Positions 2,336 to 57,553 of a DNA stretch of 64,000 nt are shown here, in pieces (the stretch's first letter is position 1; each line of letters begins with the position of its first letter). The DNA lies in assembly GCA_008632985.1 (NCBI GenBank), contig QPGO01000138.1:62001-126000 (forward strand), written 5' to 3'. Under the pieces are notes generated by a model. That model ran no database searches. It was given only the letters and a program-made list of their open reading frames with translations, and had not been told where the DNA came from. This stretch comes from Psammoneis japonica. Taxonomy: Eukaryota. Position numbers and translations under genes: made by a program.

Positions 2336-3774
2336 TGCCGAAAAGTCTTGAGGCACGGTTGGTCAACGGTAGATAGGCCCTCGAGTCAAAACGCAACGGT
2401 CATCACGCACTGCGGCGCGCGGCTGCGCGCGGCGGCCTTTTGTGGTGCTGCCGACAGAATGACGAAAACCTGGAAGTGAACGTCGCGCCACAGCTCTCTG
2501 CTCTCTCCACTGCCAGCAGAGCAACTGTGCACTTCTGTCTACTGTATTCCAGCTACTTTAGAGTGTAGCCCACCGCAGCCACTCTCTAGAGCCATGGCTC
2601 TTGAGAAGTTGTGCAAATGAAGAGGAACCAGAAGGCCGCAAAAAGTTGCAGGAGGGCTCGGGGCTCCCAGCGCATCTTCTCCACAGCAGGGCAGAGTGTG
2701 AAAGCACAAAATGACAAGTGCTTGTCAGACTCCTCCTTTTTGCAAAATCATGATGATCACAGGCAACAGCACCAAAACCAAACAGGGGTTGCAAGGCCCA
2801 TGGAATCTCAATTTCCTCTTGTCTCTTTCACTGCCGGCACTGGGGCGCACTGTGTGTGTCCGCCCAGAGCAGCACCGCCAAGTGCTCCGTGCCCATGCTT
2901 CATTGCAACCTGCAAGCATGACCCCAAAAGTCACAACTGAGAACATTTCTCATGGCGGTGAGCTTGTTTCATCAAACTGGTGCCAGGCAAGAAAACTGTG
3001 GTGCATGTTGAAATTGATCTGCGGGATGTCGTCAATTGCCAGAATGGCTTTGTCTTTTTGCTCTGCATGTCATGCCTCTGGCTTCTGTTTTGCTTCTTCT
3101 TCTGTTCCACAGTGACTCTGAAAGCACTGTCTGGCACCACTCTCCAACATGAGTTTCACACTGAACTGATGAATCAAAGCACATGACAGGTTGTGCGTCT
3201 TTGTGGTTGGGGTGTTGACAGCAAGAGCGCAATTCTGAGGTGCTGGTGGGTGCTTTGCTGCCCCATGCATGTGGTGATTGCAAGGTGTTCATTCAAAGGA
3301 TTTGTCAACATGACAAGAAACCTTGTTTGGATGTGCTCATTTTTGTGCCTGTTTCTTCAATTTTTGTTCTTTGGCCTTCTTCTTTAAACACTCAATTGAC
3401 CCAACAGAGTGTTGGACTGTTTGATGACCAAGTTCTTTGGAGCAGTGCATCAGCCAGTTCTGGGTCTGGTGGATCATCAACAGTTTTCACAAAGGCAACA
3501 ATCATGGCAATGACAGAAACAACAATTCCAACAAATTTGTCACAATGCAGCCTGCTGAATCTGGGTGAAGCTGGAGTCCTCTTTGGACATCAGGGCTCCA
3601 AAGCACAAGAAACCAAAATTTAAGTTCTCTGCAGTGGCACCTGCCACCATCAAGAGTGCTGACATCACCAAACCCTCAATGGCAGGAAACACACCAGATG
3701 ATGGTGCCAATCTTGGCCTCCCATGGATTGGAAGTCAACTCAACACAACTCAAAATGTGCTCTGGAGACCACCA

Positions 3775-4610
3775 CATTTCTGATGCCAAGAAAGGGGGTG
3801 ACAAAATTTGGGTGCCAGTCCAGCCTCAATGGCAACTTTTTCATGCATTGCAAGGATTTGAGTTGCTCTCTAAACCTCTGCAATGTGCTCATGGGACCAG
3901 ATTTGGAATTTCCAGCCATGCCGTGATGATGGATCTCACACAAGATTTGGATTCCATGTCCATGTTGTGGAGTGAATGTTGTCATCTTGAATGCTGGAGT
4001 CACACAGCATGGGAATCATGCTCAGAATGAAAAAAACATTTTGATGTGTGGTTTTCAGTGTTTCAAAAGTCATGAGCAATTCTCAATGACCAGCTGGAAA
4101 GTCTCTAGCTGGAAACCCTTGTCACCAGAGAAACACAACAGCAACAAACAAGAAGCCAAAGCTGGAGAAAAATGAGAGCAAGATGAGGTTGGAAAGGATG
4201 GTGCACCACAATCAATAACAAAGCTCATCATGTGCTTTTTAGAATCTGTGTTTTTCATCACTGGAGAATTTGGTCTCTTGATCACCATGCATTTTTTGTT
4301 TTCCATGTCACTGTCCATTTAAATTTTTTGCTTGCAGTTGCAGAAGCACCTGCTGCAGCAAGAGAGCAAACCTGCCAGTGCTCAGACGTCACTTGCACAG
4401 ATGACTGCACTGTGTTGTCAACCTAGAATGATGAACCATGAATCAGAATGTGTTGCTCCATTTGCAAGGAATTGTGGTTGAGCATCAGTGCAGTCACACA
4501 ATGCGGGAACGTGACAAATCACTGAGACAGCTCATCACATGGCAAAGGATCATCTGTGAACTCCTTGGTGCTCCATTGCCAGGTGTCTCATCCATTGCCG
4601 CTTGTGAACA
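3775..4610 (+). repeat. Dispersed repeat, copy 1 (homologous to ~28085-28865)
   Basis: Collinear matches, e.g. gagcaagatgaggttggaaaggatggtg (~4176) vs gggcaagatgaggttggaaaggatggtg (~28485); tgtcaaccta...gaaccatgaatca in both. Confidence 0.9.
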
Positions 4611-5709
4611 CAATTGCATTGTTGTCCATCTCAACAACTCACAAACACAGAAAACGAATGTTGGCAACACAAAATGCAAGCGCAACAAACAAAAACAGTG
4701 AAGAGTGGTGCACCACATTTTTTGGGGGAGCAGGTTTTTCTGGAGGTTCTGGGGTGTTGGTTTTGTCAGCACCATCGTTGCCATGGTCATCGTCATTGGA
4801 AAGGCAAGTGCTGTTGTCAATGACTTTTTGGAGAACTCATCATCCGCAAAGGGGGAGAACATGCAGCGAGTCGCACTGCGGCCGGAATCTGTGGAACAGA
4901 TGGAATCGTCATCATCAGAGGATTCTTCATTGGCACCTTCAGCAAGACTGCCAGAGACACCAGATGATTTGTCCTCCTCTTTGCTGTCAACATCTGCCAG
5001 GCAAGAGTGCACCCTGGGGAGTGATCAAGGCGGGCACATGCTTTCTCTGAAGACAATGATGGAGCACCAACAGCAGCAACCACACATCTGCGGAGTGACA
5101 GGTTTGTCTTGGGTGGGTTGGACTGGTGGAGGTGATGCAATGGGCCTCATCATTGCAACAAAAAAGGGCCATGGGGTTGTGCCAAATCTGTGCAGATTTC
5201 ATCATGTCAAATGCGGCAAAAACAAAGTGAGCAGAAGTTGACAGGGTGGAAAAGCCACAGAAACATTGTAGAAAGGACAAAATAATTGCAGAACAAGTTG
5301 TTTGACTCAACGCACATTGTGCGTTTGTGAGCGAATTGCAGCTCTGGGTGCCACTGGCATGTGTCATGTGCGACACGACATGAATCACTCAATGCACCAA
5401 TTTTGATCAGGTGAGAAACACATTGCTGAACACAACAAACAAGGGCAAAATCCATTTGGGCAACTGTGTGTTCCACAAACATGTGCATGTCAGGTGTGCC
5501 AATTGTCAAGTGCAAGTCGGAAGATGAAAAATGACACAAATGTGTTGGGGGGGCAGTGGATTGGGTGGATGACAAATGTGGGCATGTGCAAATGAACAAA
5601 AAAGGTGGGACACCAATAAGAGACTGTGCAAATCAACAAGTGAGGGGGGTGACGGAATGCACGGAGAAGTGTGCCCAATGGTTCACGGCGGGGGACAATG
5701 ACCTGTGAT

Positions 5710-7000
5710 TCATGCAGCTTTTTTCACCTTTCTGATGTGCTGATCTTTGCCCAGTTGTTTTCCTTGGCAGCCAGCTGGCAGGGATTGTTGACCCAGTTCA
5801 GGAGTTGAAAGCAGCACAACTTTGAGCCAACTGGTGCAGCACAACATTTTGTTGGCAATGTCATTTGGTTCTCTAACAAGCCAGTGCAGTGGCACACAAG
5901 GCACCGCTGCAGCACTGGCATCATTTGAGGTTGTGTGTGTGCCATTTGAGAAGGCAAGGAGTCATCACAAGACCGCTGCCAGAAAGAATCATTGGCTTGT
6001 TCACAGGATGAATTTTGTTTGCAATTGTGGGCATTGTTGTCTTTGCAAAGAAGCAGCTGTTGGAGATGGCACTCTTGGTGTGCACCCAGAGCTTGGCTCA
6101 AGATGCTTTCCATTGTGACATTCCAAATGCTTTGATTTTCCCAGAGGCGAAACAGGCTTTGTGTGTCGGTGCTTGTTGATGTCAATGAAATGCAATGCAT
6201 TGACCTGCATTGGTCGTCACACACCAACAATCTTTTTCATCAGACAAATGAGCACAACAAAACATCAGGAACACTCCACACAGATCCATGTGTGCAAAGT
6301 TGCTGCTGTCACAGCAGATGCCTTCATTGTGCTTTCTCTCTTGAGGGAAGTTTTGTTGGTTTGTCAAAGAAGATTCTGCAATGAGTCATTCTCAGGTCAA
6401 AACAAATTTCAACTCAGGCATCATGACGGGGATTCATTTAAAGGGCAGTGCAATTGCTTGAGAAAGATTCTGCAATGGGTCATTTTCACGTCAAAATGAC
6501 ATCAAGCTCAGACATCATGACAAGCACTCACTTTTAAAGTGCAATGTTGTCTCAAGTTCATGGAACTTCACTGGCCCCACAAAGCTTTCATGGGACAACT
6601 GACATGAGAGACTTGCTCAGGAGATTGGGACACCTTCCAATGGATCCCTGAATGACCATCACATTGCCGTCACAACCAGTCAGCTCTCACTTTGTCCAAT
6701 GGCCAAGGTGTCGACAATCGGTTGTTTGTCAGATTGTTGCCAAAATGAATGTCACATTCATGGAAAATTGGCACACCTCCATTGGGGTTGCTTCACATTG
6801 TCCTCCATTGCTTGCACATCACATCCATTGTGTCAACTCATCACATGCATGACATTGCTGTCTGCAATGGGAACAACCTTAAAAACACTTTTTCAGAATC
6901 ACTCATTGGCCAACATCAGAATCAACAGCACCCAAAGTGGCGCAATTCATTTGGCCATTTTATGAACACCCAAACACCCCAATGATTGATGCAACTGCAG
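5710..7000 (-). pseudogene. Decayed intron-containing gene of unknown function
   Basis: Over ~6750-6530 the minus strand reads as one frame if TGA stops are restored to CGA (SFWQQSDKQPIVDTLAIGQSES*LVVTAM*WSFRDPLEGVPIS*ASLS...LHFK), ending at a gtgagt donor, with ttgcag acceptor-like sites downstream. Confidence 0.4.
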
Positions 7001-8227
7001 TGACGTCAAATTGCAACCAAAAGCAGTCAAAAACCCCCAAAACGGCAACACAGCACCTTGAAAATGAGATCATGAAGGTGCGCTTTTCTCTTCACTGAAC
7101 AAACCACCATAATCATTTGCAATGAAAAAAAAGTGTCACAAAAATTCCTGGCCTAGTTTCATTTTATGGTTGAAAAACCCTGTTTTTCATTTGGGGTCAC
7201 GCACTCATGAAACTGCGATTCGGTGCCAGCTTGGAGTTGCATTAGATTTCAGACTGACACTGGGTCCCTCCCTGCCGGCGTCAACCTGTCACATGGCTGA
7301 CCCACAGAAGCCATCAGGAATCATTCGAAAATGTTGCATGAGTCACAACTGACATTTTGCGTGTGGGGAAAAACACAAAATCGTGTGAAAATGCAGACAC
7401 ATTCCAGGTCTAGGTGGGACCTCGTACTGCTAAACTGTGACATCGACAGTTTTTTGAATCGCGTCGCATGTCGCGCACGCACATTTCTACGTGATTTTGG
7501 CAAAATTTTGCATCATTTTACAGTGCAATTGTCAGGCGATCCATTCAACAACTTTTAACATTTTTTTCTTCTGTGCCATTCTCGAGTGTCTCAAGGGTGG
7601 TCGGTTGCTGCTTTTTTAGCTCGAATTCGGCCGAATGGCTCGTGTTTTGCATGATTTTTCCTGAATTTCACCGTGCTTCACCGTGGTGAAAACAACAAGC
7701 CACAAGTCTGTTGCAGAGGTGGTCCATCTGCCAACTCTCATTTATTTTATGTTTGTCATGTGTCAAAGATTGTGTGCACATGAAAAGTTGGCAGACGGCA
7801 AACTGCGTTTTTGAGAAATGTCGATGATTGTCATCATCGTCGTGCTTCGATCGCGGTGTTGATGGTTCTCGTTTTCGTGCGCGATTGGGTGTGACTGTGA
7901 ACAATTCTTGTGTTCAAAAACAAACACTGTAAAAAACCTTGTTCAAATGCAATGGCAATTTTGGGACAAACGCGGGGATGACCCCCCCTCAAGAATGGCA
8001 TGGGGCAGGCGCACTGTCCAAAACTTCGAGTGCGAACAGAGACATGTGCACTGCAAACTTGGCCGTTCATTTTATGTCGAAGACAAATGTGTCCATTGAC
8101 CAGAGTACAAACCACAGAGCTTGCACGCAGAATTCTACGGGGCAAGCTGTCACAAAAAGTCCCACCCAGGACTGGAACCCCGTCTTCACACGATGTCATG
8201 CGAGAGAGTGATTGGAGCTAACAACTT

Positions 8228-8328
8228 TTCGGGAACTGAGTTGAAATGCCATCTGATTGATGGCATTGGCCTTCACCATGTGAATCAAAATGCCATTGAT
8301 CAGATGGCATTTCAATTGATTTCCCGAG
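8228..8328. repeat. Imperfect inverted repeat (27-bp core arms 8241-8267 and 8289-8315)
   Basis: Left arm ttgaaatgccatctgattgatggcatt vs reverse complement of right arm ttgaaatgccatctgatcaatggcatt; outer tcgggaa/ttcccga extend it. Confidence 0.85.
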
Positions 8329-9478
8329 AAGTCAACATTCATGCATGGATGGATGGACAGACTGACAGCAATCTGTTTTGGCACTCTCCCACACAATTTC
8401 TGCACAATGACTCTCAGGACCCAAATGATGTCCAACAAGCAGATCATGGTCAGATTGAGTTTAAGAGAGATGAGTCCATCTGTTGTTCACAGTGATTCTT
8501 CACCTTCAAGTGGTGGGGAGATGCGACAGCCCACATCTGATCCCAGCTCCATCCTGGACACAGACAACCACATGACACACCCAACATTTTCACCACAGCA
8601 AGAGGCACCTGCATCAATTTGAAAGCTCATGGTTCTCAGGTTGCCATTTGCAGTGCTGCCAAAAGAGACATTGAGAGGGGCATTCCGAGGATCTGGAGCT
8701 GCGCCAGGACCGGCATCTGCTGGCTCCCAGAAGTGGCCCAATGTTGCCAGACTTTCCTCTGGTCACAAATGAAGCCTTTTTGGATGTGAACATCACAATT
8801 GATGCAGCTTGATTTGAGGTCATTGAGACCCAGCATCAAGAGGAGGTTCCTTTCCCCACATGACACGTTGTTGAAGGACGAGTGGGGATGGGTGTGTCAA
8901 AAGCAAGAGCAGCGAGAGAAAAAATGGGGGCGGCTCACATGCAAAATGAGCAGTTGCATGCATGTTGCAAGAAAAGAAGAACAAGACTCATGGTCACACA
9001 AGTGACCTCACGCAAGCAGCAAACAAGTCACTGACAGGAGTGTGCGGCCACTGGAGTGACACATCTGCACACGAAGAGAGTGCTGCCAAAAGAAGAACTC
9101 ATCGTCGCTGTTGCTTTCGTGAGATTCTGAACGGTTTCGTTTGTGTGGCATGCACAAAAAATCATGGTTGGAGTGAGAATGAACGCATCCTGGTTTAAAT
9201 TTTAAACATGTTACACTCGTCCGCGTGTAGCCTGTGTTTTAACACTGTGCAAACAAAGTGATCGATCTTCCTTCGTACGTCAAGCAACTTCAACTTGAAG
9301 CCGGGGAGCGCGCACGATTGGATTGGCCTTTGACACCTGATGGTTCTTTTCATCATGCTCTAGAGTAGAGATCGAACAAACTCTGCTTGTTGATTATTCT
9401 TCTTCAGTCTGATGAAGCGAATGCGGATTAGAAAACATGACAACTTCGCTTTTGTAACTACTTGAGATTGCGCTCACC

Positions 9479-19539: not shown

Positions 19540-21620
19540 TGATCGCGCGTTCACGTGCCAGGACAAACGTCCCACACACACATCCATGATGACGCGACAT
19601 GCATGTGAATAAAAGAAATGGATGCATGCACTTGGCATGCATCGACGTGGATAACGTCAACAGCATGAGTGAAACAAAATGCACATTTAATTCTTGATGT
19701 TCATGGGCTTGCAAAGACTTTCAAAAATTGCCAGATGTCTTGAGACATCTGAAGAGATCACAGCATCTGCCTCACACAGCGAGATCTCTCGTCAAAGCAA
19801 TGGGCGAGGTGGTCAAAGTCGAGAGGCAAGGGGGTGAGGGGTTGGGCACTCAGAGTGTTGAATGACATAAGTCCCCAACCTGTGCTGAACTGTTGTGCTT
19901 GCACATCACCTGTTGCTGGAGAGACAGCCAAAATGCAAGAACGCAGCATGTGCTGGTGGCAATGTTTTCTCTCAAATGTCCGCAGACTGGACAAAGGAAA
20001 ACAGTGGATGTCACAAAAACAGAGCAGCTGTCAACAAAATGGAGCTCAAAGATGAGGAGTCAACACCATTGAAGTTTCATTCATGATGCAATGTCACTGC
20101 TTTTGTTGGCAGTGACAAAGTGCAAGAGACGCTGCCACTGCTTCTGCAAAAGCTGCTGTTGTGGGTGACAAGCAAGAGCCTGTCAAAAATTCTTCCACTT
20201 TCTGCCTTGAACATGAGCACTCATATGCTGGAAGAAATGCACACTTCACACACACCAACACACAACTGAAGAAGTTCCCTTTTGCCATCCTGAATTCTCT
20301 GTTTGACTCAGTGACCAACTTTGGGTTGTTGACCTTGAACGACCCACCTGCCAGCACAGAGCAAGCAAAAGTGAAGAATTCTCCAGCACAGCAGCTTCTT
20401 AAGTCAATTGGTGTTCTGAAGTGCGCTGCAGCTGGCTGCCCACAGCACACTGGTTCTTTCTGTGGTTCTTGTGCAGCTGAGACAGGAAACACCTCACTGA
20501 GGAATGGCTGGGGGCACTCAAATCAAATCAACTCAAGCTCACCAGGCAAGTTGCCAAGAAGACAGTGGCTTTGGATGCAGCAGCCAGCTGCTGCTTGTTC
20601 TCTGAGTGTGTGCACACTGGAGTGGAAGAGAGGCTTGTCCCAACTTTGTGCCTTTGCTGCCCTCACCTGCAGCAAGAAGCAACTCAGCTGCCATTGCCAT
20701 GCAACATGACAGGGAGCCAATGACCACACTTGAGACAAAACCCATGCTCAAGGAACAAGAAAAATGCAAATGAGTGCCAGCCACACCAGCGCACCTGACT
20801 GCAACCATTTCAAGATGCTGAGATCCTTGTCAGCAAATTTAAAAGTGACAAATCTCTTTTTTAAATGCGCCAAACAAAAACCATTCCATGCCTTGGATGG
20901 TCCAGAGTGGAGCATCCTTGAAACAACAACAACAAACTGGCAAACACAACACACGGCAATGACCCAAAAATGAGCAACAAAACAATTTTTCATGATGCCA
21001 AGAGAGCCGTTTGCCAAGCTCCAGCACATGCACAAGATGAACAGGACAAAATGGATGTGCGATTTGGCGCTGCCTCTCCATCAAAAAACAAGAACAAATC
21101 AAGAAAGAATGGGAAACCCCTCTCTGAAAGGCTGGGCATTTGAGTTGAACCAACTTGTCGGGCAAGTCACCAAGAAAACAGCAGCGTCAGATGCAGCAGC
21201 TGCTTCTGAAATGTTGTGTGCATTAGAATGGAAGAGGGAACTGCCTTTGTGCCAACAAGGAATGAAACATCCTTCAACAGGAAAGCTTTTCCTTTCAATT
21301 GGAACTTTGACAAGAACACATCTGCAGTTGTTTGGTGCCTGAAATGGAGTCAAGGCTGCTTTGATGTGGCCTTCCATGCAAAAAGACTCTGGTGATGCTG
21401 CAGTTTACAAGACAGGATGATCACTTGCTGCAGCTCCAGTTCATTGTGCAGCTTCGCAAGGCCATCTTTTACATGTCAAAGCCAGTTGATAACACAGTGC
21501 ACACTGCAGTCCTTGAGGGCGACGTGAAAAAGTTCAGGTTCAAGGCTGCTGAAGGGACCGGAAGCAGCAACTGTGAAATGGAGCACAGTGTAAAGATTTG
21601 TCACACTTTGCACATCACCA
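19540..21620. other. Hypermutated domain B (CpG/TpA-depleted)
   Basis: TA and CG rare; grades back to normal composition at ~21.6-21.8 kb. Confidence 0.8.
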
Positions 21621-21835
21621 ATGTGAACAACGGTTGGATGTGCAGTCGCCCTTTTGTGTGCTGGCGAAGATGCGACCTTCAACTACGGGCAGAATACAGG
21701 AAAGTCTTGAGCTTTCTAGATGCTACACGATTGCCACAAACAATGATGCAAGGTTTCCACCGGGTTCTGCTTTGTCTACCGCGCGGAAGAAGAGGAAGGA
21801 ATAGACATGGAGTCTCTGTCGCCCATTGTCCTTGA
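20850..21835 (+). pseudogene. Decayed Crinkler-like / restriction-endonuclease-fold gene
   Basis: Remnant motifs GWAFELNQL, VWCLKWSQGCFDVAF and LLQFTRQDDHLLQLQ resemble the W...NQ..FD...Q.T....H pattern of CRN-type REase domains; split across frames. Confidence 0.4.
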
Positions 21836-26289: not shown

Positions 26290-28540
26290 CACATGCTGTG
26301 GTGATACAAGTGAAGAAAATATTTCTAGAAGTGTGGTGATTGACGTGAACCTTTCAATCTTCAGTTTGCCCCATGGTCTGACTCTCTCTCTCTCTCTCTC
26401 AAGAGCAAGGAGAGGAGAAGCAAGGAGAAGCGGTGCTGCCACTTGACAACAGGCTGGCTGGCCAACTTGATGTTGCCGCTGTTCTTTGCAGGCTGCTTGG
26501 TGTGGACAGCACACCTTTGATCTGGCTCTTGGTGTGTGTGTGTGTGTGCTGGGAATGTGCTTTGCAGCATGATGTGGTGATGACAGGCTTGATCATGTTC
26601 TTTTTTTCAACTGGTGCAGGAGAGGGCGGGGTGTGTGTGTTTTTCTCCTCTTTGCATTTGAAAATGAATGTGCGATGACATGATTGCAGCAACACAATGC
26701 AGGGTGCCACCAAAGAGCAAGAAAACATGGTGCAAAGCTTTTGAAAAACAGGTCTCTGAGTCGGGTGCTGTGTGCAGTGACCAAGCATGTCAAGAAAGTG
26801 TTGGCCACCTCTCTCTGTTTGCCTCAGATGAGATGTCATGACAAAAACAGTGCACACCACAGGCATCACAACAAGGAAGAAGAACACAGCAGAGATCTGG
26901 TCACTGGTTTTGGGTTCATTCAGAAAAGCATCAGTGTGTCTGACTCTGCATGTGTCCTGCCCATTCAGCAGCAAAAAAGAGTGTTGCTGCTGACAATGAC
27001 GAGCAAAGAAAAGAGCCCCACACAAACAGACACAGACAGGTCAGCAATGCTTTGTTTGCAACAGCTTTGACATTTGCACTGCTGTGGATGCTTTGCTGCT
27101 GATGCTGTGGCCAAGAAACAGGGAACAAATCTGTGGATCTGGCTCATCCATTTTGTTCCCTGGCACTGTGTGAGCAGACCATCTGGCTGCCAATGCCTTC
27201 TGCAAAGCACAGTGTGCATGCCAATGCCATCAGAGACATTGCAGCCAACTAGAAAAAAGGAAAACAGGGTTTAAACCACAACTCACAACCCCAAGAAAAT
27301 GGTGACAAGGAAACTTGCACATCTGCAGAAGTGGGTGTGAACACACTGTGAGCCAGTGCAAATCCCTTCAGCCAGCGGTGTCAAGAAAATTGGTGACTGA
27401 ACAGCCAGCTCCAACTGCAAAGGTTGAACACAACAAAAGAAGATTGAACACACACACAAGTGCAGGCAAGCAATGTGAAACTTTGAATTTTGAAAATTTT
27501 CAAAATTTGGAAAAGGTGTTGCATGACCGCACAGTGGTCGTCCAGAGCTCTCTGCTGGTGATCTGTGAAGAGGGCAGAGTTCCTCAAGTGTGCCACAAAA
27601 GTCACAAGCTTCCATTGCAAGAGCAGTTGGATGGACTCTCTGGGCTAAAACTCATTTGGTGGAGCATCGTGCAAGCTCCAACATGGAGAGAGCAGGAAAA
27701 CCATCAGTCAATGAACTTTTTGTCCTTGACCAGATGGAGCTGGTGGAGCTTTGTGGGAACTTCACACATGTGCTTTTCAATTTCTCAGGAAGTGATCAAC
27801 TTGACATCACCACCAGCTGTCTCGCAGAGGTGCCATGGGGTTGTTGCATCCAATTCCCTGCAAATGTGAACAAAGCACATTTGGCAACATGGCACGCTCT
27901 GGTTTGACCAAGTCAAGACCTCCTTCCCAAAGATTCAAAGTGAAGAGCTTCTCTTTGCCATGATTGCCACTCTCTCAAGTGCCCCAAACAACCCACACCT
28001 TGGCAACAGATTCAACTGGTGAGTGGACAAAACAACATCCATGCCACTGAGATGTTGGCAATTGATGCCAGCCAGCAACAATGCACCACGTCTCTGATGC
28101 CACAAACAGGGGTGAAAAAAATTCAGATGCTAGTCCAGCCTCTATGGCAAATGCTTTTTTTTTGTGTGTTGCATGACTTTGAGTTGTTCTCTGAACCTCT
28201 ACAATGTGCCCACAGGACCAGATTTGGAGCTTCCAGCCACACCCACCATGACAAAGATTACATCTGTGTTGTTGAGTGAATGTGTTCATGTTGAATTCTA
28301 GAATCATGTGCTATGGGAATCATGCCATGCTCAGAAGGAGAACAACATTTTGATGTGTGCGGTGTTTTCAGTGTTTCAAAAGCCACTGGCAGATCTCGAT
28401 GGCTGGCTGGAGTCTCCAGCTAGAAACCCTTGTAAGAGAACACACATCAGCGACAACCGAGAAGCTGAAGCTAAAGAGAAATGAGGGCAAGATGAGGTTG
28501 GAAAGGATGGTGTGCCACTGTCATTAATGAAGCTTGTCAT
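26290..28540. other. Hypermutated domain C (CpG/TpA-depleted)
   Basis: TG/CA-rich and nearly TA/CG-free; includes (CT)n at ~26382-26400 and (GT)n at ~26532-26548. Confidence 0.8.
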
Positions 28541-28865
28541 TTGTTTTTCAGAATCTATATTTTTCGTTACTGGGAATTGGTCTCTCGAGCACCACACAGT
28601 TTCTAGTTTTCCACATCACTGTCCATTGTAACTTGAGATTGCGTAAGTACCTGTGCTCACGCGTTACTTGTACGGACCACGGTACTGCGTTGTCAACCTA
28701 AAATAACGAACCATGAATCATAACGTGTTGTGCTATTAGTGAGGAATTATAGTCGACTGAGGGTGTAGTCGCGAAATACGGGAACGTGATAAACCACCGG
28801 GACAGCTCATTGCCAAGGATCATCTATGAATGCCTTGGCACTCCATTGCCAGGCATCTCGTCACT
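28085..28865 (+). repeat. Dispersed repeat, copy 2 (homologous to 3775-4610); right half retains TA and CG
   Basis: Collinear with copy 1, e.g. attatagtcga (28746) vs attgtggttga (4471). Confidence 0.9.
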
Positions 28866-29869
28866 GGGACAGGAATCTACACTCCCAGCGGTAGCACCTG
28901 TCGCAGAGACACTGTTGCTTGGATGCATCCCCTCGACCTCATCGCCCTGAGACAGAGCGGAAGATGCTCCATTAGAAATGCGAGAGAGTCCAGCACGAGG
29001 ACGTTCACTCCAAAGGTGGTCATCGTCGCCCTCACTGGACAAGTCTGAAACCGATTCATCATCTTTACGGCGGTAGTCCAATAGAACTTGATCGGAAAGG
29101 CCATCCACAAACGCAGCCGCTCCTCTGTCGCCAATCCACTTCTGGAGTTTAAGTCTGCAGAACACCCTCACATCAGGTAAATCACCGGGAGTCAGCAGCA
29201 AATGATGTATGCTTTCTTTTTGCTTTTCGGTGAGACCGTCCAAGAGACATCTCAGCGGATCTACATGAAGAGGCAACGCAAAGCAAACACACGTGTGAGA
29301 ACACGACCACACAACACAACCTATGAACGGACAACCCGCTCTTGCGTTTACTACTTACCGGGAAGGGGGCGTTGATAAATGCTATTTGGAACCTCCATCA
29401 TGAAGGGAAAGTGAAAAAAAGTGAGTTTTTGTCTTTCGAAACTGACGCCGATTCTACAACGGTCAAATTTTGATTTTTACAGCCCAGCGGCAAACCACTC
29501 ACCCGTTTCCTCCTTCTCCTCTGCTTCTTCCAGTTGAATACCTTTACGGTTCGAGCAGTCGGGCACACCGATGGGTCAGTGATGATGAGAGTATCATTCT
29601 CGGGGATCAAACGTAGGAGATTTGTTGTTGTCATTCTTGTTCTTGTCATCGTACTAACATGCGGGTGCTGGGGCTTTCAGCTTTCGCGGGAACGACGATC
29701 GAGCGACGACCATAAAGGAATCCTGGAAACCACACGAGCCTCAGAGGGCAAGGCAAACCACGCAAGTAATAGCTGCGTAGAGTCTCGCGAGAAACAAATA
29801 ATCACCGTCGGTCGAGCTTTGTTAACAGTAGTACGAACCGTGACAACCTGTCGCCGTTTTGAATTGGCT

Positions 29870-29897
29870 GCTCCGTGCTCCGTGCTCCGTGCTCCGT
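29870..29897 (+). repeat. Tandem heptamer (GCTCCGT)4
   Basis: Directly visible perfect repeat. Confidence 0.9.
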
Positions 29898-30230
29898 TGC
29901 CGTTGCTGGTCTTGCTGGTCCAGGTTGCTGGTGGGTGTCGCCACAACATACATGCAACATGCAACACGCAGTGACGGTCTGTCTGTACGATTGATTTACG
30001 TATATTTTGTAATTTCGTCCGTCCCTACCACCTCCAGCCCGATCCAAAATCTTATTTTGGTCTGTCTCTCCATCAGGAGCTCCTCGGTTTCCTTTCACGC
30101 CGAAACCCGAAACGCGAACATTCGCGAACAACCATGAACACACACCAACTGCGTTCATTGAACCCCGGCTGCACCATGACGCATGCATTTATATCGAACG
30201 CAAAAGGATCCATCTCATTTACTTCTAGTA

Positions 30231-30739: not shown

Positions 30740-33700
30740 CAGATTGATTCCCTATTTTGCTTTTGAGCTCGCACAAATCTAGAAAGCAAGTGACTGCCAT
30801 GCACCGTGCTGTTACTTTGTTTGAAACATGCGTGTTCCATCTTGTGTTGCAACAGGAAATTGCAGCGCAGTTGCCGCATTGCCTTCCACACATCAACCCC
30901 CCCCGCAGCACCTTCCTGTCTCACCATTGCGCGATGACTACAAATTCGTTCACCTTCCTGTCTCACCATTGCGCTAGTAGTAGTGACTGCAAATTTGATC
31001 GCATCCACCAGCATCGAAGGATTTTCGGCGTGTGAGCTCTCACCTGCGCGCCAAAATGAGCAATTCGTACAGTACAATGCATGTGAATCATCAACATGCA
31101 CAAGCCACGAATGACTCGAGGTCGGATGCCAAGGTCAAAAAATGCCAATTGAAAACCCAACCCAACCCATCTCTTTCTTTTGCTGCAATGACGAACTTTT
31201 GTGTCATTGTTGCTGTGCACTGGTGTGTCGCCATGCAGAAATGAGCTTTAAGCAGAAAGCAGGGAGTTGAGTGACAAGGGAGTCAGGTGGAATGGAAATT
31301 GAAGGTGGCAGAGTCACGTGGGATTTCTTGCAGGGTTTTGGGGCACAGGGTTCCTTGCAGGGTTGCAGGGTTTTGGGGTGAAAAAGGATGGACCGACAAC
31401 CTTGCTGGAGCCAACAGAGTTTCCAAGGCAGCCATCAATGTGCAAAAGAAAGTTTTCAAAGGAGAGAAGGGATGAAAGAAAACAAAGAAGGAAGGGGAGG
31501 TTTGCTGTCAGCAGCACAATCAGCTCTTGTGTGCAAGTGCTCTTTCTTCTCTCCTGTTTTGTTGCAGTGTGAGTGCAAGCAAATCAACGATGTTGTGGTC
31601 AGCTGGAACTCAGCAGCCACATGTCATGCTGGGCAGTGAGTTGTTTCAAGAAGACAAAAGCTGAGATGAAGCCAACAACTCATGGTGCTGCACATTGTGA
31701 AACTCTGCAGAGTTGCAATGGAAAACACCAATGAAGATCCTGTCTTTCCCAAGAAGCCTGCCTTGGAAAGGTGCCCCACATCAGCAAATGAGCACGCAAG
31801 CAAAACAAGACATCTTGAAGCCAGCATTTCAATCAAGAAGCTTTTTGAAGACTCCAGCAGAGCAGGCACAATGATGATGAGTGCCAGCTTCATTTTGACA
31901 CCCAGGGTGTGTCAGTGCAAAAAAAGTGCCGCAAGAAGGCACTCAAGCAGTTTTGGAGTCACTTGCTGGGGTGACAAAGAACAGACACTGGCGCAGTGGC
32001 TTGAAAGGATCACTGGCACATGCGCTGCACTTTGCATTTGCCAAAGGTCAAATGGTGCTGTGAAGGGCCCATGTGATTCACCAGAGGAGAGTTGATGTTT
32101 TTGTGAGACAAAAAGAGTGTGCAGAGTGAAAAATGCCACTCACAGCAGATTGTGACAGAGCAAAATCATGTGGTGGCTGATTGACCAAGGCCCCATGGCA
32201 CCACAACTTCTCTGCAACTCTGCATTTTTGCCACATCCAAAGTCCACAACAGCCACAGCCCTGCCAACCTTTCACACTGGCCTCACATCAAAAAGTGTGA
32301 GTGCACGGGGCAGCAAACTTGACCCACATGATGCATCAACAACATGGCAAAAAGACTTGAATGTGTGGCAGATTTGGCAGGCTTGTTTGTGCATGGTTTG
32401 CTTTTAGAGCAGGGGGTCAAAGTGGCCCATGAAATGCACAAAAAGGCTTTTCATTTGATTGAAAGTTTCTGAAACATCACCCCACAAGTGCACTGCCATG
32501 ATTGGGCTAAACAAAAAGAGAAATGACACCTGCAAACTGAGCAAAATGTTTTTGTTCTAACAACTTTGTCTTTGTTCTCAGAAAGATGAAAGCAACTGCT
32601 GCTGCCATGTGCAGTCAATGTTGTGGCAGACGTGCTGTTGTGGGGAGCAATGATGTGCAACAATCTCAGACATGGGTGCTGCACAAAAAATGTGACACAA
32701 ATTTAATGCTTTTTTTTACAACCACACAGAATGGATGGCAAAAATGCTTTGGCAAAGTTGGAAAATTGTTGGCATGTGACTTGCCGCAATGCAAACATTT
32801 CCAGAAAACCAACAATGATGTTGATGACAAAAGCTGTGATGCTTTGTCAAAGTGCACAGGACCACCTCAATGTTGCACTTCTAAATCTGCCTTGCCAAGA
32901 GAATGAATTGCAGCAGCAACAAAAAGGATCAGTGACATGGGCTTCTGATTTGCACACTCCAATCTCTGTCAAAAAGTGGCATGACTTCCCAATCCAAGAG
33001 GTGACACACCACAATCAACACACAACAATGGACTGCTGAGCCAAAACAGAAAGAAACAATGCAGCTGCAAGCACAAGGCATGAGCAACACAAGCCTGCTC
33101 TGAAGAAATGAGTGGATTTGCTTCTGATGTGTTTTTGTGTGGGACTGTGAGCTGGTCAATTTCAACAGCAACAGCCAACATCTTTCCAGCAAAACAAAAG
33201 GGCTCATGTGTTCTCATTCAAATGCTGTGCAACACCTGGACAGAACATGTGGTGGAAGCAATGCTGATGCAGGAGGCATTGATTGTGCAGCAAGCTCTCT
33301 GAGGAGAACCCCAGCACCTGCAAAGCATTGCATTGCCAAGATCTGTAGATTCAGCATGCATCTTAGAGCTCCCTTTGTGTTTGAGAAAGGAAGGTGTCCT
33401 TCTTTTGATGATGCTGGTCTTAAAAACATTTCTCTTGAGCTGCAAGCATTGGCTGTGGGAAGTGTTCATCACTTGAGTAGAGCAGCCAGCCTTTCATGCG
33501 ACAATCTGGATCTCTGAAATATTTTTTTCAGAGCAGAGAGAATCTCAGGCATGCCAAAATTGTCCATTTTGGCCACTTTGAATTCTTGGATGACACTGTG
33601 AGCTGCGGAAGGCTGCGGCAAAGCACCTGAAGTCCCTCTTGAAACTTCCGGGTGAACTGGGTTGATTTGGCAAAGGAGCTGTCTTAGATTTGGCATGCTG

Positions 33701-34470
33701 TGGTGGTGTTTTGGCATTCTGCAAAGTGTCCGATGCAGTGGCTTGCAGAGTCAAGTGTCGTTGAGGCTGCCAAACCCAAATTTCAGCTCTCCAATCATTG
33801 AAGAGATTTGAGTGTCTGCTTGGTGTGCATTGCAGTCTGCTGTGTGTCATTTTCATTGGTTTGAGGTGTTCAGGCCAGTGCAAATCAGCCCAAGCAGTTT
33901 TGTGCAAGTGGCTCTGGCACTGCATGTCCAGAATGGAGGTGCACCATCTGTCTTTGCATTGCCCCACTTGGTCCACTGAGCTTGTGTCCTTTGTGTCCCT
34001 TGTTGTTGGAGAACTTCTCATGCCAACCTCAGCCAGCCCTGCAGCAAACTCACTTCTGCTGCTTTGTCATCTTCCAGCAGCTTCTTGCACACACCACCAC
34101 TTGTTGTTCCAGTCATCCTGCTGTCTCTTTGTGTTTGAGCTGTGCAGTCTCTGGAAGCACTCTCTGTTGTGGAGTGCATTGCTGCTGTCTCCCATTGACC
34201 CCCCCCCCCCCCCCAAGCAGCGTTGGAGAGAGAGGCTTGAGACCAGTGAGCCACATGGCACATGGCAGATGGCCACTCAACCTCCCTGGCTCCCCTCACA
34301 AAAAAAATCAACACGATTGAGAGGTTGCAGCCCTGCACAGCAAAGAAATGGGTTGTGATTGCTTTTGCAGCATTGGCTGCTGAGCTGTTTCTTGGCAGGA
34401 GAGGGGAGGGGATGCTCTGGCCCCGGCTGCAGGAAGCTTGAGTTTTCCAACTGCTGCACCATCTCTATGG
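30740..34470. other. Hypermutated domain D (CpG/TpA-depleted)
   Basis: TG/CA-rich; includes a 24-bp direct repeat (30909-30932, 30951-30974) and a poly-C tract at ~34199-34214. Confidence 0.85.
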
Positions 34471-46319: not shown

Positions 46320-48640
46320 CAAAGTTTCATGCATGTGCAGCATTAGAGCTGACAGAGGTTGTGCTTACGGCATGTCTCTCCATCCTGCTTGCTCGAACTG
46401 AAATCTTTTTTTCATTCGTGGTCGTGCCCGCCCCTCACCCTTCAAGGCTTGGACGACGACGGGCCAGCAAAACACACACTTGAAATCTCATTCAAAATTT
46501 CCGTCAGAGAGAAAGCTTTCCGTGAACTTTGTAAACAAATTATGCTGTGACACGCTTTTGGTCTCGATGAACAATTTTGCCAAGGTAAAATGAAGAAGGT
46601 CTTTGTTGTCATCACAGTCCTGCATTTTGAGGTTGGAGGACATCAGAAAGCCGATGGAGATGAAGACAACCTTTTCCATTTGGGCCGGCCATGACTTTGA
46701 TGCTTCAAGCAAGGTTGATCAGTTTGTCCCTCTCTCCATCTCTCTTTAAAAGTTTTCTTTTCCTGTCATCTAAAACTCTTCTGTGCATTTCCATGTGCTG
46801 CCCTCTCTCAACTCCAGAGTCGGCCTCAACAGCTCCGGAAGCAAGGCAGAACTCATCTGCTGCCGGCCACTTTCACCTTTCATCATTGGCAGAAATCATG
46901 CAGAGAAAAACAGGTTGCTCCCAATGATGTCATCTTGTCTGCAGCTCATTGCTGCAACAAATTCTGAGAATTTTTTGTTGGCATTGGCAAAGACAGGAGT
47001 TTGGCTGTGAAGACAGTTTTGAAAGATTTGGGGTTGTGGAAGCAATCGCTCACATCTGCAGCACAACCAGTTTGCCCTTGAGAATGATGTCATGCTGACT
47101 CAACTGCATGGCATTTCCACAGCCTCTCCCATCACCATGAAAAATGTCAAGAGCACACTCTCCCACTGCAGGAACACATCCAACTGTGTGACAGGGTCCA
47201 GCACTGAAGAAGAGGTCCCCATTTCAGACTTCTCACTGGAGGCATCTGTCAGATCATTGCAAAACAAGGCACGCTTCAAGATTTTTGATGAGGTGGAAAA
47301 ACACCTTCTTCCTTCTCTCACACCACAGCAGCAGATGTCGTCCAAGTTGGAGTGGTTTTGAAGGGTGCCCACAGCTGCACTGCTGGTGCCCAAGTCTGTG
47401 TCTGCACAAGTCATGCACTCATCTGGATGAATAAAATGACATGCTGTGTGACTGAAGTTTTTCAGATGCAACCAAGTGCACCTCCACTGAGCCTCAGCCC
47501 AACTGTGCTGATGCCAACTCTGGTTCCTCACATTGCCCATGACTTTGAAACCAAGCCTCTCAAGCCCACTGCTTTGTTGCTGACACTGAGCCCCACTTTG
47601 TCACCCACAATTCTGCCAAGCCTTGGGCCCACAGCTGGGGTGCAAAATGTGCAAAGAAAAGCCAACAAAGCACCCTGGGGCCACTCCGCCACCAACCATG
47701 CTGCCCAGCCCCAAGCCAGTGCACACCCTGGCACCAACAACAAGGGCTCCAACAGTGTTTCCTGGCCACCCCCAAATGCTCTGTTCAGCCCCAAGCTGAG
47801 TGCACTGTGGCAAAAACAAGGAGGCACCCACACTCTGAGGCAAAAAAAGTGACCTGCCCACCGGCAGAGATCAACCCAAACTGACACCCATGGCACAACA
47901 AGGCTGTGTGCAGCCCAGCACAAAAAAAACATGTCAGCCCACAAGGGTCAACCCAATTTGGTGATCATGGCACACAAATGATCATCATTGGAAAACCCAA
48001 AAGGCCGGGGATGCAGCAGGAAAGCCAGCCAGAAATCCCAAGCATCGCCCTCATTGGAAAAAACACATGCGAGCTGTTTGGGAAATCAGAGCTGACATTG
48101 CCCATGTCAGCCAAATGAGGGGCCTGTAAAGAAACACCACAAACTGATGCAAGCGGCCTTCATGTTGCAATTGTGGCTGTTCACTTCACTCGGTTTGTCA
48201 ACAAAGCAGCGCCAGGTGTTTTCTCAACAGCGGGCGGCGCTGCCCAGCAAATGTCAGCCCCAAGCAAATGTGCCATTGCAAGCACAATGAAGTTGAAGAT
48301 TTTTTTCAATTGATGATTTGTGGCCAGCTACTCTCTGCCACCAATGTGATGCAAACAGCTGGGTTTTTTGCTTTTCAATGCTTTGATGTCAAATCGAGGA
48401 AAACACAAAGCGGGGCAATGCTGCAGGGGAAACACTCTTTAGCCTGCCCCAGTCATGTGGCCTGGGTGCACTTTCAGCTTTCAACAGCTCCATGCTCTCT
48501 TCACTGCGGCATCGTTGAATTATCTCGAGAAGTGGAAGTGGATCATGGCCACTGGGGACATTAACACAGCATGTCGAGAAGAAGAAGAACTGAACAGACA
48601 ATGATTGACACAATGTGTGGTGGTCACACTTTGGACAAAA
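46320..48640. other. Hypermutated domain E containing a decayed Pro/Thr-repeat gene on the + strand
   Basis: CpG/TpA depletion; remnant LSLSPT...LSPTLSPTILPSLGPT at ~47480-47640. Confidence 0.75.
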
Positions 48641-48986: not shown

Positions 48987-50464
48987 ATGAAGCAGGTCTT
49001 TCTTGGTGCTATCGTTCTGTATTTTGTGATAGGAAACCATAACACAAACGGCGATCAAGATCGTTTTTTGCGTTTAGGAAGGCCACAAAGCCTTAATCAA
49101 TCAAAGCAGGTCAGCTCTGGCAAATCCATTTTTGAAATGTTCACTTGCGCTTCCAACTAATTTTTGTTCAACTCCAGGCTCATTCTCAGCATAGGAATCA
49201 TCCATCACAGGTAGCATTTATCATTGGCGGAAATCAAGCGGAGGGAAATAGGTATCCTTATTTCGCATCTTTAGAAGACAAAGAAGGCGATGCCTTTTGT
49301 GGAGGATCACTCGTCGCTCCCAATGTTGTTTTGTCCGCCGCTCACTGTAACGCGAGATTCTTGAAGTTCGTGAGCATTGGCAAAAACAGCGTGCTTGACT
49401 CTGAAGACAGTTTTGAAAGATTTAGAATCGCAGAAGTGATCCCTCATCCACAATATAACACTTCCACCGATGAGAACGACATCATGTTGATTCGACTTCG
49501 AGGTATTTCTGCAGCTTCACCTGTAGCCGTAAATCAAGATCAAAATACACCGACGGCTGGAACAGCTCTTGCTATCATTGGCTTTGGAAAGGCGGAAGCG
49601 GCTTCTTTTCCAAAATTCTTACTAGAGACATTGGTTCAGTCATTGTCAAACGATGATTGCTCGGAGGTTTTCGACACGATAGGTTTTTTCTACTCTGATG
49701 ACATGATGTGCACTATCGCGAAAGAGAAGGGAGCATGCGAAGGTGACTCTGGTGGGCCTCTAATCATTCGAGGACCTAACCCAGCAGCAGACATTCAAGT
49801 CGGGGTCGTTTCGTGGAGCGTCAACGGTTGTCCTGACACAAGTGAGTTTCCGCAAGTCTTTGCAGATGTCAGCTATATGATGGAGTGGATGTATGAAACG
49901 GTTTGCGACATGACTGATGGAGTCCTGGACCAGAGCAAGCAAAGGACTTGGTGTTCAGATATCTCGATTCCGAATGTGACGCCGAAAACGCGTCCCACCT
50001 CTAGGCCGACTTCTTCGCCAAGCCCCGAGCCTACACGGATGCCAATAACAAAAAAGCCTACAACACCTCCAACTCCATCACCATCCGCTCAACCGAGCCC
50101 CGTGCCAAGTACCCCAGCGCCAACATCACAGGCCCCAACTCTCCAGGACGAGCCGAAGACGCGTCCACCCACGAGGATCAACCCAAACTGGCGCCCTTGG
50201 TACGCAGATCGTCGATGGAAAAATCAAAAAGCTGGACAAAAATCATGGGCAAACCGGCGCCCTTGGTATGAAGATCATTGCTGGAAAAATCAAAAAGCTG
50301 GCCAAAAATCATGGGCATCTGCTACCCAGGAGGAGAAGACCCGTCCGATCTCAAGGATTAACCCAAACTGGAGCCATTGGCACAAAAATCCTCGCTGGAA
50401 AAATCGAAAAGCTGGACACAAAAGAAATATGGACAAGCATCATAAGCATCCGCATTGGAAGTAA
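48987..50464 (+). CDS. Secreted S1 (chymotrypsin-fold) serine protease with a Pro/Thr linker and basic Trp-rich repeats; intron 49110-49177
   Basis: Signal-peptide exon splices in frame; IIGG, CGGSL, LSAAHC, DIML, GDSGGP, GVVSW. Confidence 0.93.

Positions 50465-57522: not shown

Positions 57523-57553
<31 letters not shown>

What the first reader, a model, noticed from the sequence alone, without database searches (positions are those of the whole stretch)
28085..28865. Two repeat copies give the mutation direction, and the domain boundary cuts through copy 2
Seen: copy 2 (right half, outside the domain) vs copy 1 (inside domain A): aaataacgaa 28701 / gaatgatgaa 4426; attatagtcga 28746 / attgtggttga 4471; gtgtagtcgcgaaatacggg 28763 / gtgcagtcacacaatgcggg 4488; gtgataaa / gtgacaaa; catctatgaa / catctgtgaa. 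In these segments most differences are TA->TG, TA->CA, CG->TG or CG->CA. The left half of copy 2 is largely converted while its right half is not. Inference: targeting follows a chromatin domain with a border rather than the extent of homology, unlike RIP.
Basis: seen in the sequence. Interest (0 to 1): 0.8.

Follow-up and report, generated by a model that had tools for sequence, protein, structure and literature searches.

The report
Hypermutated silent domains in a diatom
In this diatom DNA, sharply bounded stretches have had almost every CG and TA step mutated to TG or CA, and one edge runs through a repeat copy, showing that position in the chromosome rather than sequence similarity decides what gets mutated.

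Summary
Observation confirmed. 3770-4592 and 28084-28862 are two copies of a ~0.8 kb repeat (72% identity, E 3e-127). In the right part of copy 2, 27 sites keep TA/CG where copy 1 has TG/CA, against 1 the other way. The best change point is 28549/28556 (support 28421-28662). The window is diatom nuclear DNA. 25 of its 64 kb lie in seven "converted" domains where (TA+CG)/(all pyrimidine-purine steps) is 0.04-0.07, against 0.37-0.40 elsewhere. Pooled over 13 borders, the switch happens within about 100 bp.

A second, independent pair fixes the direction. A tandem pseudogene (46591-48636) of an intact trypsin gene has lost 38 of 67 aligned CG and 30 of 42 aligned TA to TG/CA. Its homologous upstream ~95 bp is unconverted, and so is the functional copy.

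So targeting follows position, not homology, unlike RIP. "Chromatin" remains an inference. TA loss and CG loss have partly different edges, which suggests two processes. The TpA part matches a 2026 preprint on Bigelowiella natans. I found no report of it in diatoms, or of its coupling with CpG loss.

The parts
3770..4592 (+). Repeat copy 1, wholly inside converted domain 2673-7405. Fully converted: 5 TA and 4 CG left, against 94 TG and 95 CA.
28084..28392 (+). Repeat copy 2, left part, inside converted domain 26346-28390. CG almost gone; some TA kept (28131-28393: 6 TA, 1 CG, 35 TG, 25 CA).
28393..28641 (+). Repeat copy 2, transition zone. TA is back to normal (rank 0.39 among interior windows). 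CG is still low (rank 0.002). The pair-based change point 28549/28556 lies here.
28642..28862 (+). Repeat copy 2, unconverted right part. 22 sites keep TA/CG where copy 1 has TG/CA, and none show the reverse. It overlaps the last 12 codons and stop of the minus-strand ORF and its presumed 3' UTR.
2673..7405 (.). Converted domain A: 80 TA+CG among 1168 pyrimidine-purine steps (0.068).
26346..28390 (.). Converted domain whose right edge runs into copy 2: 23 of 494 (0.047).
28824..29312 (-). 162-aa ORF ending 38 bp inside the right end of copy 2. No Pfam family. Two contigs of run X2 lack 29261-29358, a segment bounded by GT..AG on the minus strand.
46591..48636 (+). Converted domain that is a tandem pseudogene copy of the trypsin gene. 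The alignable stretch is 46496-48174, with the pseudogene ATG at 46590-46592. The homologous upstream stretch 46496-46589 is not converted.
48987..50464 (+). Functional trypsin gene, the unconverted partner. ATG at 48987 with a hydrophobic N-terminus. The main ORF 49145-50464 matches Pfam Trypsin at E 1.6e-42.
8237..9070 (.). Converted domain (12 of 202). It is separated from domain A by island 7411-8230, which is TA-poor but CG-normal.
19658..21628 (.). Converted domain (32 of 468). A TA-only depleted shoulder, 19327-19656, reaches towards the Cdc37 gene.
31127..34460 (.). Converted domain (34 of 784).
53834..63999 (.). Converted domain running to the window end (139 of 2424). A TA-only shoulder lies at 53542-53833.

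Best explanation
SHOWN:
- The window is diatom nuclear DNA. Discrete 0.8-10 kb domains have had nearly all CpG and TpA steps turned into TpG/CpA by transitions, in place.
- The ~0.8 kb repeat was duplicated while still unconverted. Each copy was then converted independently, according to where it lies.
- Copy 1 sits in the interior of a domain and is fully converted. Copy 2 lies across a domain edge, so only its left part is converted.
- The same logic holds for a tandem trypsin duplicate. One copy is converted from about its start codon onward. Its upstream homologous DNA and the functional copy are untouched.
- The mutated region is therefore set by chromosomal position, not by the extent of homology.

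INFERRED:
- Two region-targeted processes overlap.
- (1) Deamination of 5-methylcytosine at CpG in methylated, silent DNA.
- (2) A TpA-specific A-to-G (T-to-C) process, of the kind measured in Bigelowiella natans and proposed there to be DNA adenine deamination.
- Both act on silent DNA and stop near active genes, leaving about 300-500 bp of unconverted flank. In copy 2 the edge would then be the 3' end of the minus-strand gene whose stop codon is at 28824.
For: Domains:
- A two-state HMM finds 7 converted segments, 25,129 of 64,000 bp. (TA+CG)/YR (YR = all pyrimidine-purine steps) is 0.043-0.069 in them and 0.37-0.40 in the normal segments; the island 7411-8230 is 0.27.
- Total YR density is the same in both states: 239 and 233 per kb normal, 238.5 and 235 per kb converted. 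Only the partition within the class changed.
- Pooled over 13 borders, the ratio jumps from 0.063 to 0.341 across one 100-bp bin.
- The same HMM finds 0 converted segments in 241,157 bp from 31 environmental diatom-like contigs of 3 kb or more, out of 80 loci fetched.

Direction:
- In the right part of copy 2 the asymmetry is 27:1.
- In the trypsin pair, of 67 aligned functional CG, 19 became TG, 19 became CA and 1 was kept. Of 42 aligned functional TA, 12 became TG, 18 became CA and 1 was kept. Only 8 sites show the reverse.
- The functional copy is an intact Pfam Trypsin ORF at E 1.6e-42.

In-place, independent conversion:
- In 28084-28392 there are 63 shared YR sites: 46 identical, 9 TG-vs-CA, 6+2 one-sided. 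This is what independent conversion of about 40% ancestral TA/CG predicts.
- A second 95%-identical copy or allele in run X1 differs from the window at 27710-28087 by TG/CA, CA/CG, CG/TG and CA/TA swaps.

Not homology:
- Borders lie inside homology in both pairs.
- The converted domains share no detectable similarity with each other: best score 56 against a reversed-sequence null maximum of 50.5.

Not an artefact:
- Independently built contigs of run X1 match the converted DNA with 0 differences over 506, 427 and 489 nt.

Precedent:
- The B. natans preprint reports 230 of 231 mutations in two silent integrated viral regions as A>G or T>C, all at TpA. One of the regions is single copy.
- Diatom methylation is predominantly at CpG (passage in PMC5124317; PMC9998398).
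Against: - No methylome, histone or transcript-end data were available, so the link to chromatin, methylation or transcription is untested.
- The origin of the domains is unknown. Pfam finds nothing in 105 ORFs, nor in stop-read-through frames. It also misses the known trypsin pseudogene, so that search is blind here.
- Only two informative pairs exist in the window.
- The copy-2 edge is graded. 12 of 30 informative sites left of the change point are still TA/CG.
- The TA and CG edges disagree by 300-500 bp at 5 of 13 borders. A single shared mark is therefore unlikely.
- None of the 31 related environmental contigs shows such domains. The trait may be lineage-restricted, or such regions may simply not assemble in metagenomes.
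- X1 may be the sample the window was assembled from, so it does not check the sequencing chemistry independently.
- A third copy, ~92% identical and unconverted, covers the right part of copy 2 plus the gene. It could have served as a donor for gene conversion.
Confidence: 0.72

Rival explanations
1. A RIP-like, homology-triggered defence. Duplicated DNA is recognised by pairing and then mutated, and the domains are simply repeats.
For: - Both informative converted stretches are duplicates.
- Diatoms carry DNMT4 enzymes related to fungal RID, with unknown function (passages of PMC9998398).
- Several X1 contigs pile up at 27104-27287, so part of domain 26346-28390 is multi-copy.
Against: - Only one partner is mutated in the shared segment in both pairs.
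- The borders lie inside the homology.
- TpA is destroyed, whereas RIP creates it. A>G changes are also involved.
- The converted domains show no similarity to each other in this window.
- The B. natans target is single copy.
Confidence: 0.05
2. Copy 2 is a chimera. It was once converted along its whole length, and its right part was later overwritten by gene conversion or recombination from an unconverted paralogue or allele. The "border" would then be the end of a conversion tract.
For: A third, unconverted copy matches 28673-28970 at ~92% identity and continues into the gene and leftwards. Its loose end carries CG/TA where copy 1 has CA/TG.
Against: - 92% identity is not a recent tract.
- All 13 borders in the window have the same step shape.
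- The trypsin pseudogene shows a border inside homology with no such donor needed.
- The edge is graded, and the TA and CG edges are offset. A single tract end would not produce that.
Confidence: 0.1
3. Editing before insertion. Mobile-element copies were hypermutated as RNA or cDNA (APOBEC- or ADAR-like) and inserted already converted, with partial editing along copy 2.
For: - Conversions in the two copies are independent.
- ADAR favours a 5' U, as the preprint's discussion notes.
Against: - The converted domain continues leftwards from copy 2 for 1.7 kb into DNA that is not homologous to the flanks of copy 1.
- A collinear tandem gene duplicate, including its upstream region, is converted in place.
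- Two haplotypes or copies differ by further conversions at the same locus.
Confidence: 0.04
4. An untargeted, genome-wide mutation bias filtered by selection. Conversion is seen only where DNA has no function.
For: Unconverted flanks of about 300-500 bp surround the intact ORFs.
Against: - Normal domains, including their intergenic parts, have (TA+CG)/YR of 0.37-0.40. That equals the 0.34-0.46 seen in 31 related environmental contigs.
- Selection cannot protect dozens of neighbouring UTR sites one by one.
- The step occurs within about 100 bp.
Confidence: 0.05
5. A sequencing or assembly artefact. Modified bases (5mC, 6mA) in methylated domains were miscalled as T and G.
For: - The pattern C>T at CG plus A>G at TA is what such miscalls would give.
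- The window contains an assembly gap.
Against: - Contigs built independently from run X1, at word depth ~35-60, reproduce the converted DNA exactly over 506, 427 and 489 nt.
- The pseudogene also carries indels, transversions and a broken frame.
- A second copy or allele shows different conversions.
Confidence: 0.02

Closest known systems
TpA-specific hypermutation of silent integrated viral DNA in Bigelowiella natans (Mettrop et al., bioRxiv 10.64898/2026.01.13.699255). I read the abstract, Results and Discussion. I did not see the supplements.
   Same: - TpA goes to TpG/CpA only.
- The process is confined to discrete regions while the rest of the genome is normal.
- A single-copy target shows it is not homology-driven.
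- The long-term signature is TpA depletion with CpA+TpG gain, in clusters.
   Different: - Here the organism is a diatom (stramenopile), not a chlorarachniophyte.
- Depletion is near saturation: TA observed/expected 0.04-0.06, against Rho 0.45 in their NCLDV (giant-virus) region.
- It comes with an equally strong CpG loss. A term search of the preprint text finds CpG 0 times.
- The domains are 0.8-10 kb with step-like edges.
- One target is a host gene duplicate.
- No mutation rate was measured here.
CpG decay by deamination of 5-methylcytosine in methylated repeats (general knowledge; diatom repeats are CpG-methylated, PMC9998398 and PMC5124317 passages)
   Same: CG goes to TG/CA, restricted to silent or repeat DNA next to unmethylated genes.
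   Different: It does not explain the TpA loss. Methylation of these domains was not measured.
Repeat-induced point mutation (RIP) of Neurospora and other fungi (features recalled; mentioned)
   Same: Irreversible mutational inactivation of duplicated or foreign DNA by context-specific transitions.
   Different: - RIP mutates both copies over the homologous stretch and turns CpA into TpA.
- Here one copy is hit, the edges ignore homology, and TpA is destroyed.
APOBEC/ADAR hypermutation of viruses and retroelements in animals (recalled; discussed)
   Same: Deaminase-type transitions with a neighbour-base preference. ADAR prefers a 5' U.
   Different: Those enzymes act on replication intermediates or RNA and are strand-biased. 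Here conversion is in place and strand-symmetric: CG gave 19 TG and 19 CA; TA gave 12 TG and 18 CA.

Membership tests
RIP (fungal repeat-induced point mutation) | C:G to T:A transitions, mostly CpA to TpA, so that TpA rises | tested here: not met
   TA observed/expected is 0.04-0.06 in converted domains against 0.54-0.58 in normal ones. A>G/T>C changes at TpA are present.
RIP (fungal repeat-induced point mutation) | Both copies of a duplication are mutated | tested here: not met
   The functional trypsin copy is intact. The right part of copy 2 is unconverted at 27 sites against 1.
RIP (fungal repeat-induced point mutation) | The mutated tract follows the extent of homology | tested here: not met
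   Borders lie inside the homology in both pairs. The domains extend far beyond the 0.8 kb repeat.
RIP (fungal repeat-induced point mutation) | Depends on a RID-type DNMT and acts before meiosis | not testable with these tools
   No genome is held for this window.
Bigelowiella-type TpA hypermutation | A>G/T>C at TpA giving TpG/CpA | tested here: met
   30 of 42 aligned functional TA sites are TG/CA in the pseudogene, and 1 is kept. 15 TA sites in the right part of copy 2 are TG/CA in copy 1.
Bigelowiella-type TpA hypermutation | Confined to discrete regions while the rest of the genome is normal | tested here: met
   7 domains with step-like edges.
Bigelowiella-type TpA hypermutation | Targets are silent DNA of viral or foreign origin | tested here: inconclusive
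   One target is a host pseudogene. The origin of the others is unreadable, because Pfam misses even the known pseudogene.
Bigelowiella-type TpA hypermutation | A raised per-generation mutation rate measured in the region | not testable with these tools
   This needs mutation-accumulation lines or population data.
Bigelowiella-type TpA hypermutation | Independent of copy number and homology | tested here: met
Methylation-driven CpG decay | CG goes to TG/CA | tested here: met
   38 of 67 aligned functional CG sites are TG/CA in the pseudogene, and 1 is kept.
Methylation-driven CpG decay | The region carries 5mC | not testable with these tools
   No bisulfite or long-read modification data were found. 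Only 3 coded runs were listed.

The most novel reading that the evidence does not exclude
Diatoms have a Bigelowiella-like DNA-editing defence directed at TpA. It works alongside CpG methylation to make silencing permanent: every CG and TA in a silent unit is erased to TG/CA. Neighbouring active genes set the edges at nucleosome scale. The system also hits the host's own gene duplicates, so it drives pseudogene formation as well as acting against invaders. It may be ancestral to the SAR groups.
Probability: 0.4. Interest if true: 0.85.

Novelty: new variant of a known kind. Interest (0 to 1): 0.72.

Why it matters
- Localised TpA hypermutation has so far been reported from one alga, in one 2026 preprint. 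This window suggests that a stramenopile carries the same signature, and carries it to saturation.
- The signature is joined here to CpG loss. It has edges sharp enough to map, and natural controls that show targeting by position rather than by homology: a straddling repeat copy, and a gene next to its pseudogene.
- This gives concrete coordinates for testing which mark defines the edge (5mC, a histone mark or a transcript end), and whether one enzyme or two do the editing.
- There is a practical consequence. Converted DNA has almost no TAA/TAG stops, so it yields long spurious ORFs. It is also invisible to profile searches, which affects the annotation of such genomes.

Tried and rejected
- Whole genome: none is held for this window. 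I could not collect other copies or search for deaminase or DNMT genes.
- Earlier findings of this scan: two look-ups returned nothing.
- Sequencing runs: no RNA holder is listed, only three coded runs of one sample.
  - X2 covers only 28576-29863 and 30232-30783. It has contigs lacking 29261-29358, a segment bounded by GT..AG on the minus strand.
  - That would fit cDNA, but the run's kind is only a guess ("DNA?"). An intron-less paralogue would look the same, so I do not count it as proof of expression.
  - I did not use depth as a copy number.
- Pfam:
  - 105 stop-to-stop ORFs of 90 aa or more in converted domains gave only two sub-threshold hits (DUF4675 at E 0.0062, DUF5541 at E 0.0074).
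  - Six frames of 26346-28393 read with X at stops gave 0 credible families. Three frames of the known trypsin pseudogene also gave 0, so the method is blind here.
  - Two earlier attempts failed: stops not accepted; too much to print.
- Repeat class: no terminal inverted repeat or target-site duplication is shared by the two copies. The ORFs that run into each copy share only their last 12 residues (9 of 12 identical, E 5e-4).
- Converted domains compared with each other, both strands, with transition-tolerant scoring: nothing above the null.
- Strand bias: none in the polarised pair (19/19 and 12/18). A transcription-strand deamination model is not supported.
- tRNA genes or Rfam families as boundary elements: 0 and 0.
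- Related loci: the first metagenome scan with the single protein found none. The second, with an alignment, gave 80 loci.
- One search was a faulty run, because overlapping ranges aligned to themselves. One search replaced it.
- Literature: searches found no diatom report of TpA or joint TpA+CpG hypermutation. The passages from the SPLASH paper were irrelevant.
Full report
**1. What the window is**

The long ORFs carry eukaryotic domains: Trypsin, STELLO, LRR, Cdc37 and bHLH-MYC_N. The Cdc37 ORF 18081-18758(-) found 383 relatives. The best is 79% identical, and the named ones are from the diatoms Attheya and Cylindrotheca. So this is diatom nuclear DNA. No whole genome is held for it. The scan's earlier notes hold nothing on it.

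**2. The observation**

The quoted strings are at the quoted coordinates.

- blastn aligns 3770-4592 with 28084-28862 on the same strand, at 71.8% identity over 841 columns, E 2.9e-127 (alignment; repeat families).
- I also scored the flanks with transitions penalised only lightly. They show nothing: 32.5 and 31.5, against shuffles with mean 34.1 and maximum 36.5. The repeat is therefore a discrete ~0.8 kb unit.
- I could not classify the unit. The two copies share no terminal inverted repeat or target-site duplication.

Dinucleotide tabulation:

| Part of copy 2 | Copy 1 TG/CA, copy 2 TA/CG | Reverse | TG vs CA |
|---|---|---|---|
| Right, 28541-28862 | 27 (15 TA, 12 CG) | 1 | 6 |
| Left, 28084-28540 | 11 | 3 | 14 |

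- The binomial p for 27:1 is 2e-7.
- A single-step likelihood scan puts the change between 28549 and 28556. 18 of 30 informative sites are converted to the left and 6 of 37 to the right (Fisher p 3e-4). The support interval is 28421-28662.
The qualification is that the left half is only partly converted and the edge is graded.

**3. The larger pattern**

Per-kb observed/expected values are bimodal. In some stretches CG is ~0.1, TA ~0.05 and TG/CA 1.6-2.2. Elsewhere CG is ~0.9-1.0 and TA ~0.55.

- A two-state model on pyrimidine-purine (YR) steps gives seven converted segments: 2673-7405, 8237-9070, 19658-21628, 26346-28390, 31127-34460, 46591-48636 and 53834-63999. Together they cover 25,129 of 64,000 bp.
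- (TA+CG)/YR is 0.043-0.069 in these segments and 0.37-0.40 outside. The island 7411-8230 is 0.27.
- Total YR density is the same in both states, at 233-239 per kb (counts). The only large difference is how YR steps are split between TA+CG and TG+CA. Transitions confined to these steps would give exactly that.
- Pooled over 13 borders, the ratio goes from 0.063 to 0.341 between adjacent 100-bp bins.
- As a control, I ran the same model on the 31 loci of 3 kb or more (241,157 bp) among 80 environmental loci encoding Cdc37 relatives. It finds no converted segment, and their overall ratios are 0.34-0.46.

**4. Direction, from an independent pair**

Self-comparison found that converted domain 46591-48636 is a decayed tandem copy of the neighbouring trypsin gene.

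- The transition-tolerant alignment covers 46496-48174 against 48876-50554.
- The functional copy has an ATG at 48987 with a hydrophobic N-terminus. Its ORF 49145-50464 matches Pfam Trypsin at E 1.6e-42. It serves as the ancestral-like state.

| Functional site | Aligned | Pseudogene TG | Pseudogene CA | Kept |
|---|---|---|---|---|
| CG | 67 | 19 | 19 | 1 |
| TA | 42 | 12 | 18 | 1 |

- The remaining sites are other dinucleotides, in a 63%-identical alignment.
- The pseudogene has CG or TA where the functional copy has TG/CA at only 8 sites.
- There is no strand bias.
- A third copy seen in the sequencing runs also keeps CG/TA where copy 1 has CA/TG. Only 16 of its 24 differences were listed, so I treat this as weak support.

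**5. Conversion happened in place and independently**

- In 28084-28392, where both copies are converted, there are 63 shared YR sites. Of these, 46 are identical, 9 are TG-vs-CA, and 8 have only one copy converted.
- If about 40% of sites were ancestral TA/CG and each copy chose a strand independently, about as many concordant as discordant conversions are expected. The numbers fit that.
- A 95%-identical second copy or allele at 27710-28087 differs from the window by TG/CA, CA/CG, CG/TG, CG/CA and CA/TA swaps. Conversion therefore continued after those two copies split.
- Contigs built independently from run X1 match converted DNA with 0 differences over 506, 427 and 489 nt. A base-calling artefact is therefore unlikely, although X1 may be the source sample.

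**6. What sets the edge**

It is not homology.

- In copy 2 the edge lies inside the repeat.
- At the trypsin pseudogene the combined edge is at 46591, beside the pseudogene ATG at 46590-46592. The ~95 bp of homologous upstream DNA keeps its CG and TA.
- In both pairs the partner is untouched in the shared segment.
- The converted domains have no detectable similarity to each other.

Intact ORFs keep about 300-500 bp of unconverted flank. The unconverted part of copy 2 overlaps the last 12 codons and the stop (28824) of a minus-strand ORF, and then what would be its 3' UTR. I could not map the transcript end. The hint that run X2 is cDNA-like is weak (see Tried and rejected).

**7. Two processes rather than one**

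Separate change points for TA and for CG agree within about 15-105 bp at 7 of 13 borders. They differ at 5, and the remaining border (7408) is poorly resolved.

- TA loss reaches further out than CG loss at 19327 vs 19658, 46249 vs 46568, 53542 vs 53834 and 9196 vs 9072.
- At the border in copy 2 the order is reversed: the TA change point is 28131 and the CG change point 28642.
- The TA-only shoulders 19327-19656 and 53542-53833 have a lower TA fraction than all 917 interior 330-bp windows of normal domains, with normal CG.
- 28393-28642 has normal TA (rank 0.39) but low CG (rank 0.002).
- So the footprints overlap but can be separated.

**8. Comparison with what is known**

Six literature searches found one close precedent: the preprint 10.64898/2026.01.13.699255. 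I read its abstract, Results and Discussion. I did not see its supplements.

- In Bigelowiella natans mutation-accumulation lines, 231 of 302 nuclear mutations fell in two integrated viral regions. 230 of the 231 were A>G or T>C, and all of those were at TpA.
- The larger region is single copy and transcriptionally silent.
- 124 genomic clusters are TpA-poor and CpA+TpG-rich.
- The authors propose an ADAT2-like DNA adenine deaminase.
- The text does not contain the words CpG or diatom.

Diatom methylation is mainly at CpG (passage). DNMT5a loss de-represses young transposons. Diatom DNMT4, which is related to fungal RID, has no known function (passages). I found no diatom report of TpA loss, or of joint TpA+CpG loss, in those searches.

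**9. Verdict**

The conclusion that targeting is positional rather than homology-based is supported twice over.

That the position is a "chromatin" domain, that 5mC deamination and adenine deamination are the chemistry, and that active transcription units set the edges are all inferences. The case is best filed as a new variant of a recently described kind of localised hypermutation. It occurs in a new lineage, is saturating, is coupled to CpG decay, and also acts on a host gene duplicate.

Noticed in passing
46496-48174 vs 48876-50554: A tandem duplicate of a secreted-type trypsin gene. The upstream copy is a fully converted pseudogene and the downstream copy is intact. It works as a polarised natural control for the mutation process.
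   Followed up: yes
19327-19656; 53542-53833; 46249-46589; 9071-9196; island 7411-8230: Zones depleted in TA but with normal CG, lying beside converted domains. Two of them have a lower TA fraction than all 917 interior control windows. TA loss and CG loss are therefore separable.
   Followed up: partly
19658-21628; 26346-28390; 46591-48636: Three converted domains have nearly the same length (1971, 2045 and 2046 bp). They share no detectable similarity. This may be coincidence or a unit size.
   Followed up: no
converted domains generally, e.g. 57860-58801(-): TAA and TAG are almost absent, so converted DNA yields long stop-free frames of up to 314 codons with no family match. These are a likely source of spurious gene calls. 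Pfam also fails to recognise the known trypsin pseudogene.
   Followed up: partly
50143-50422: Imperfect tandem units (spacing 66 and 114 bp, 61-90% identity) lie inside the C-terminal part of the trypsin ORF. They are mirrored, in decayed form, at 47851-48008 in the pseudogene.
   Followed up: no
29261-29358; run X2: Two X2 contigs skip this ~98-nt segment, which is bounded by GT..AG on the minus strand. X2 covers only the ORF-bearing stretches 28576-29863 and 30232-30783. The run is labelled "DNA?" but behaves like cDNA.
   Followed up: partly
27104-27287; 29864-30047: Short stretches where many X1 contigs pile up (summed depth ~450, against ~50-150 around them) with loose ends on both sides. 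They look like small multi-copy elements, one inside the converted domain and one in the normal domain.
   Followed up: no
52488-52849: An assembly gap of 362 N, between the STELLO-like ORF and the next normal stretch.
   Followed up: no
35758-39816 (-): A run of three leucine-rich-repeat ORFs that hit one another in tblastn. This is a small paralogous LRR cluster in unconverted DNA.
   Followed up: no
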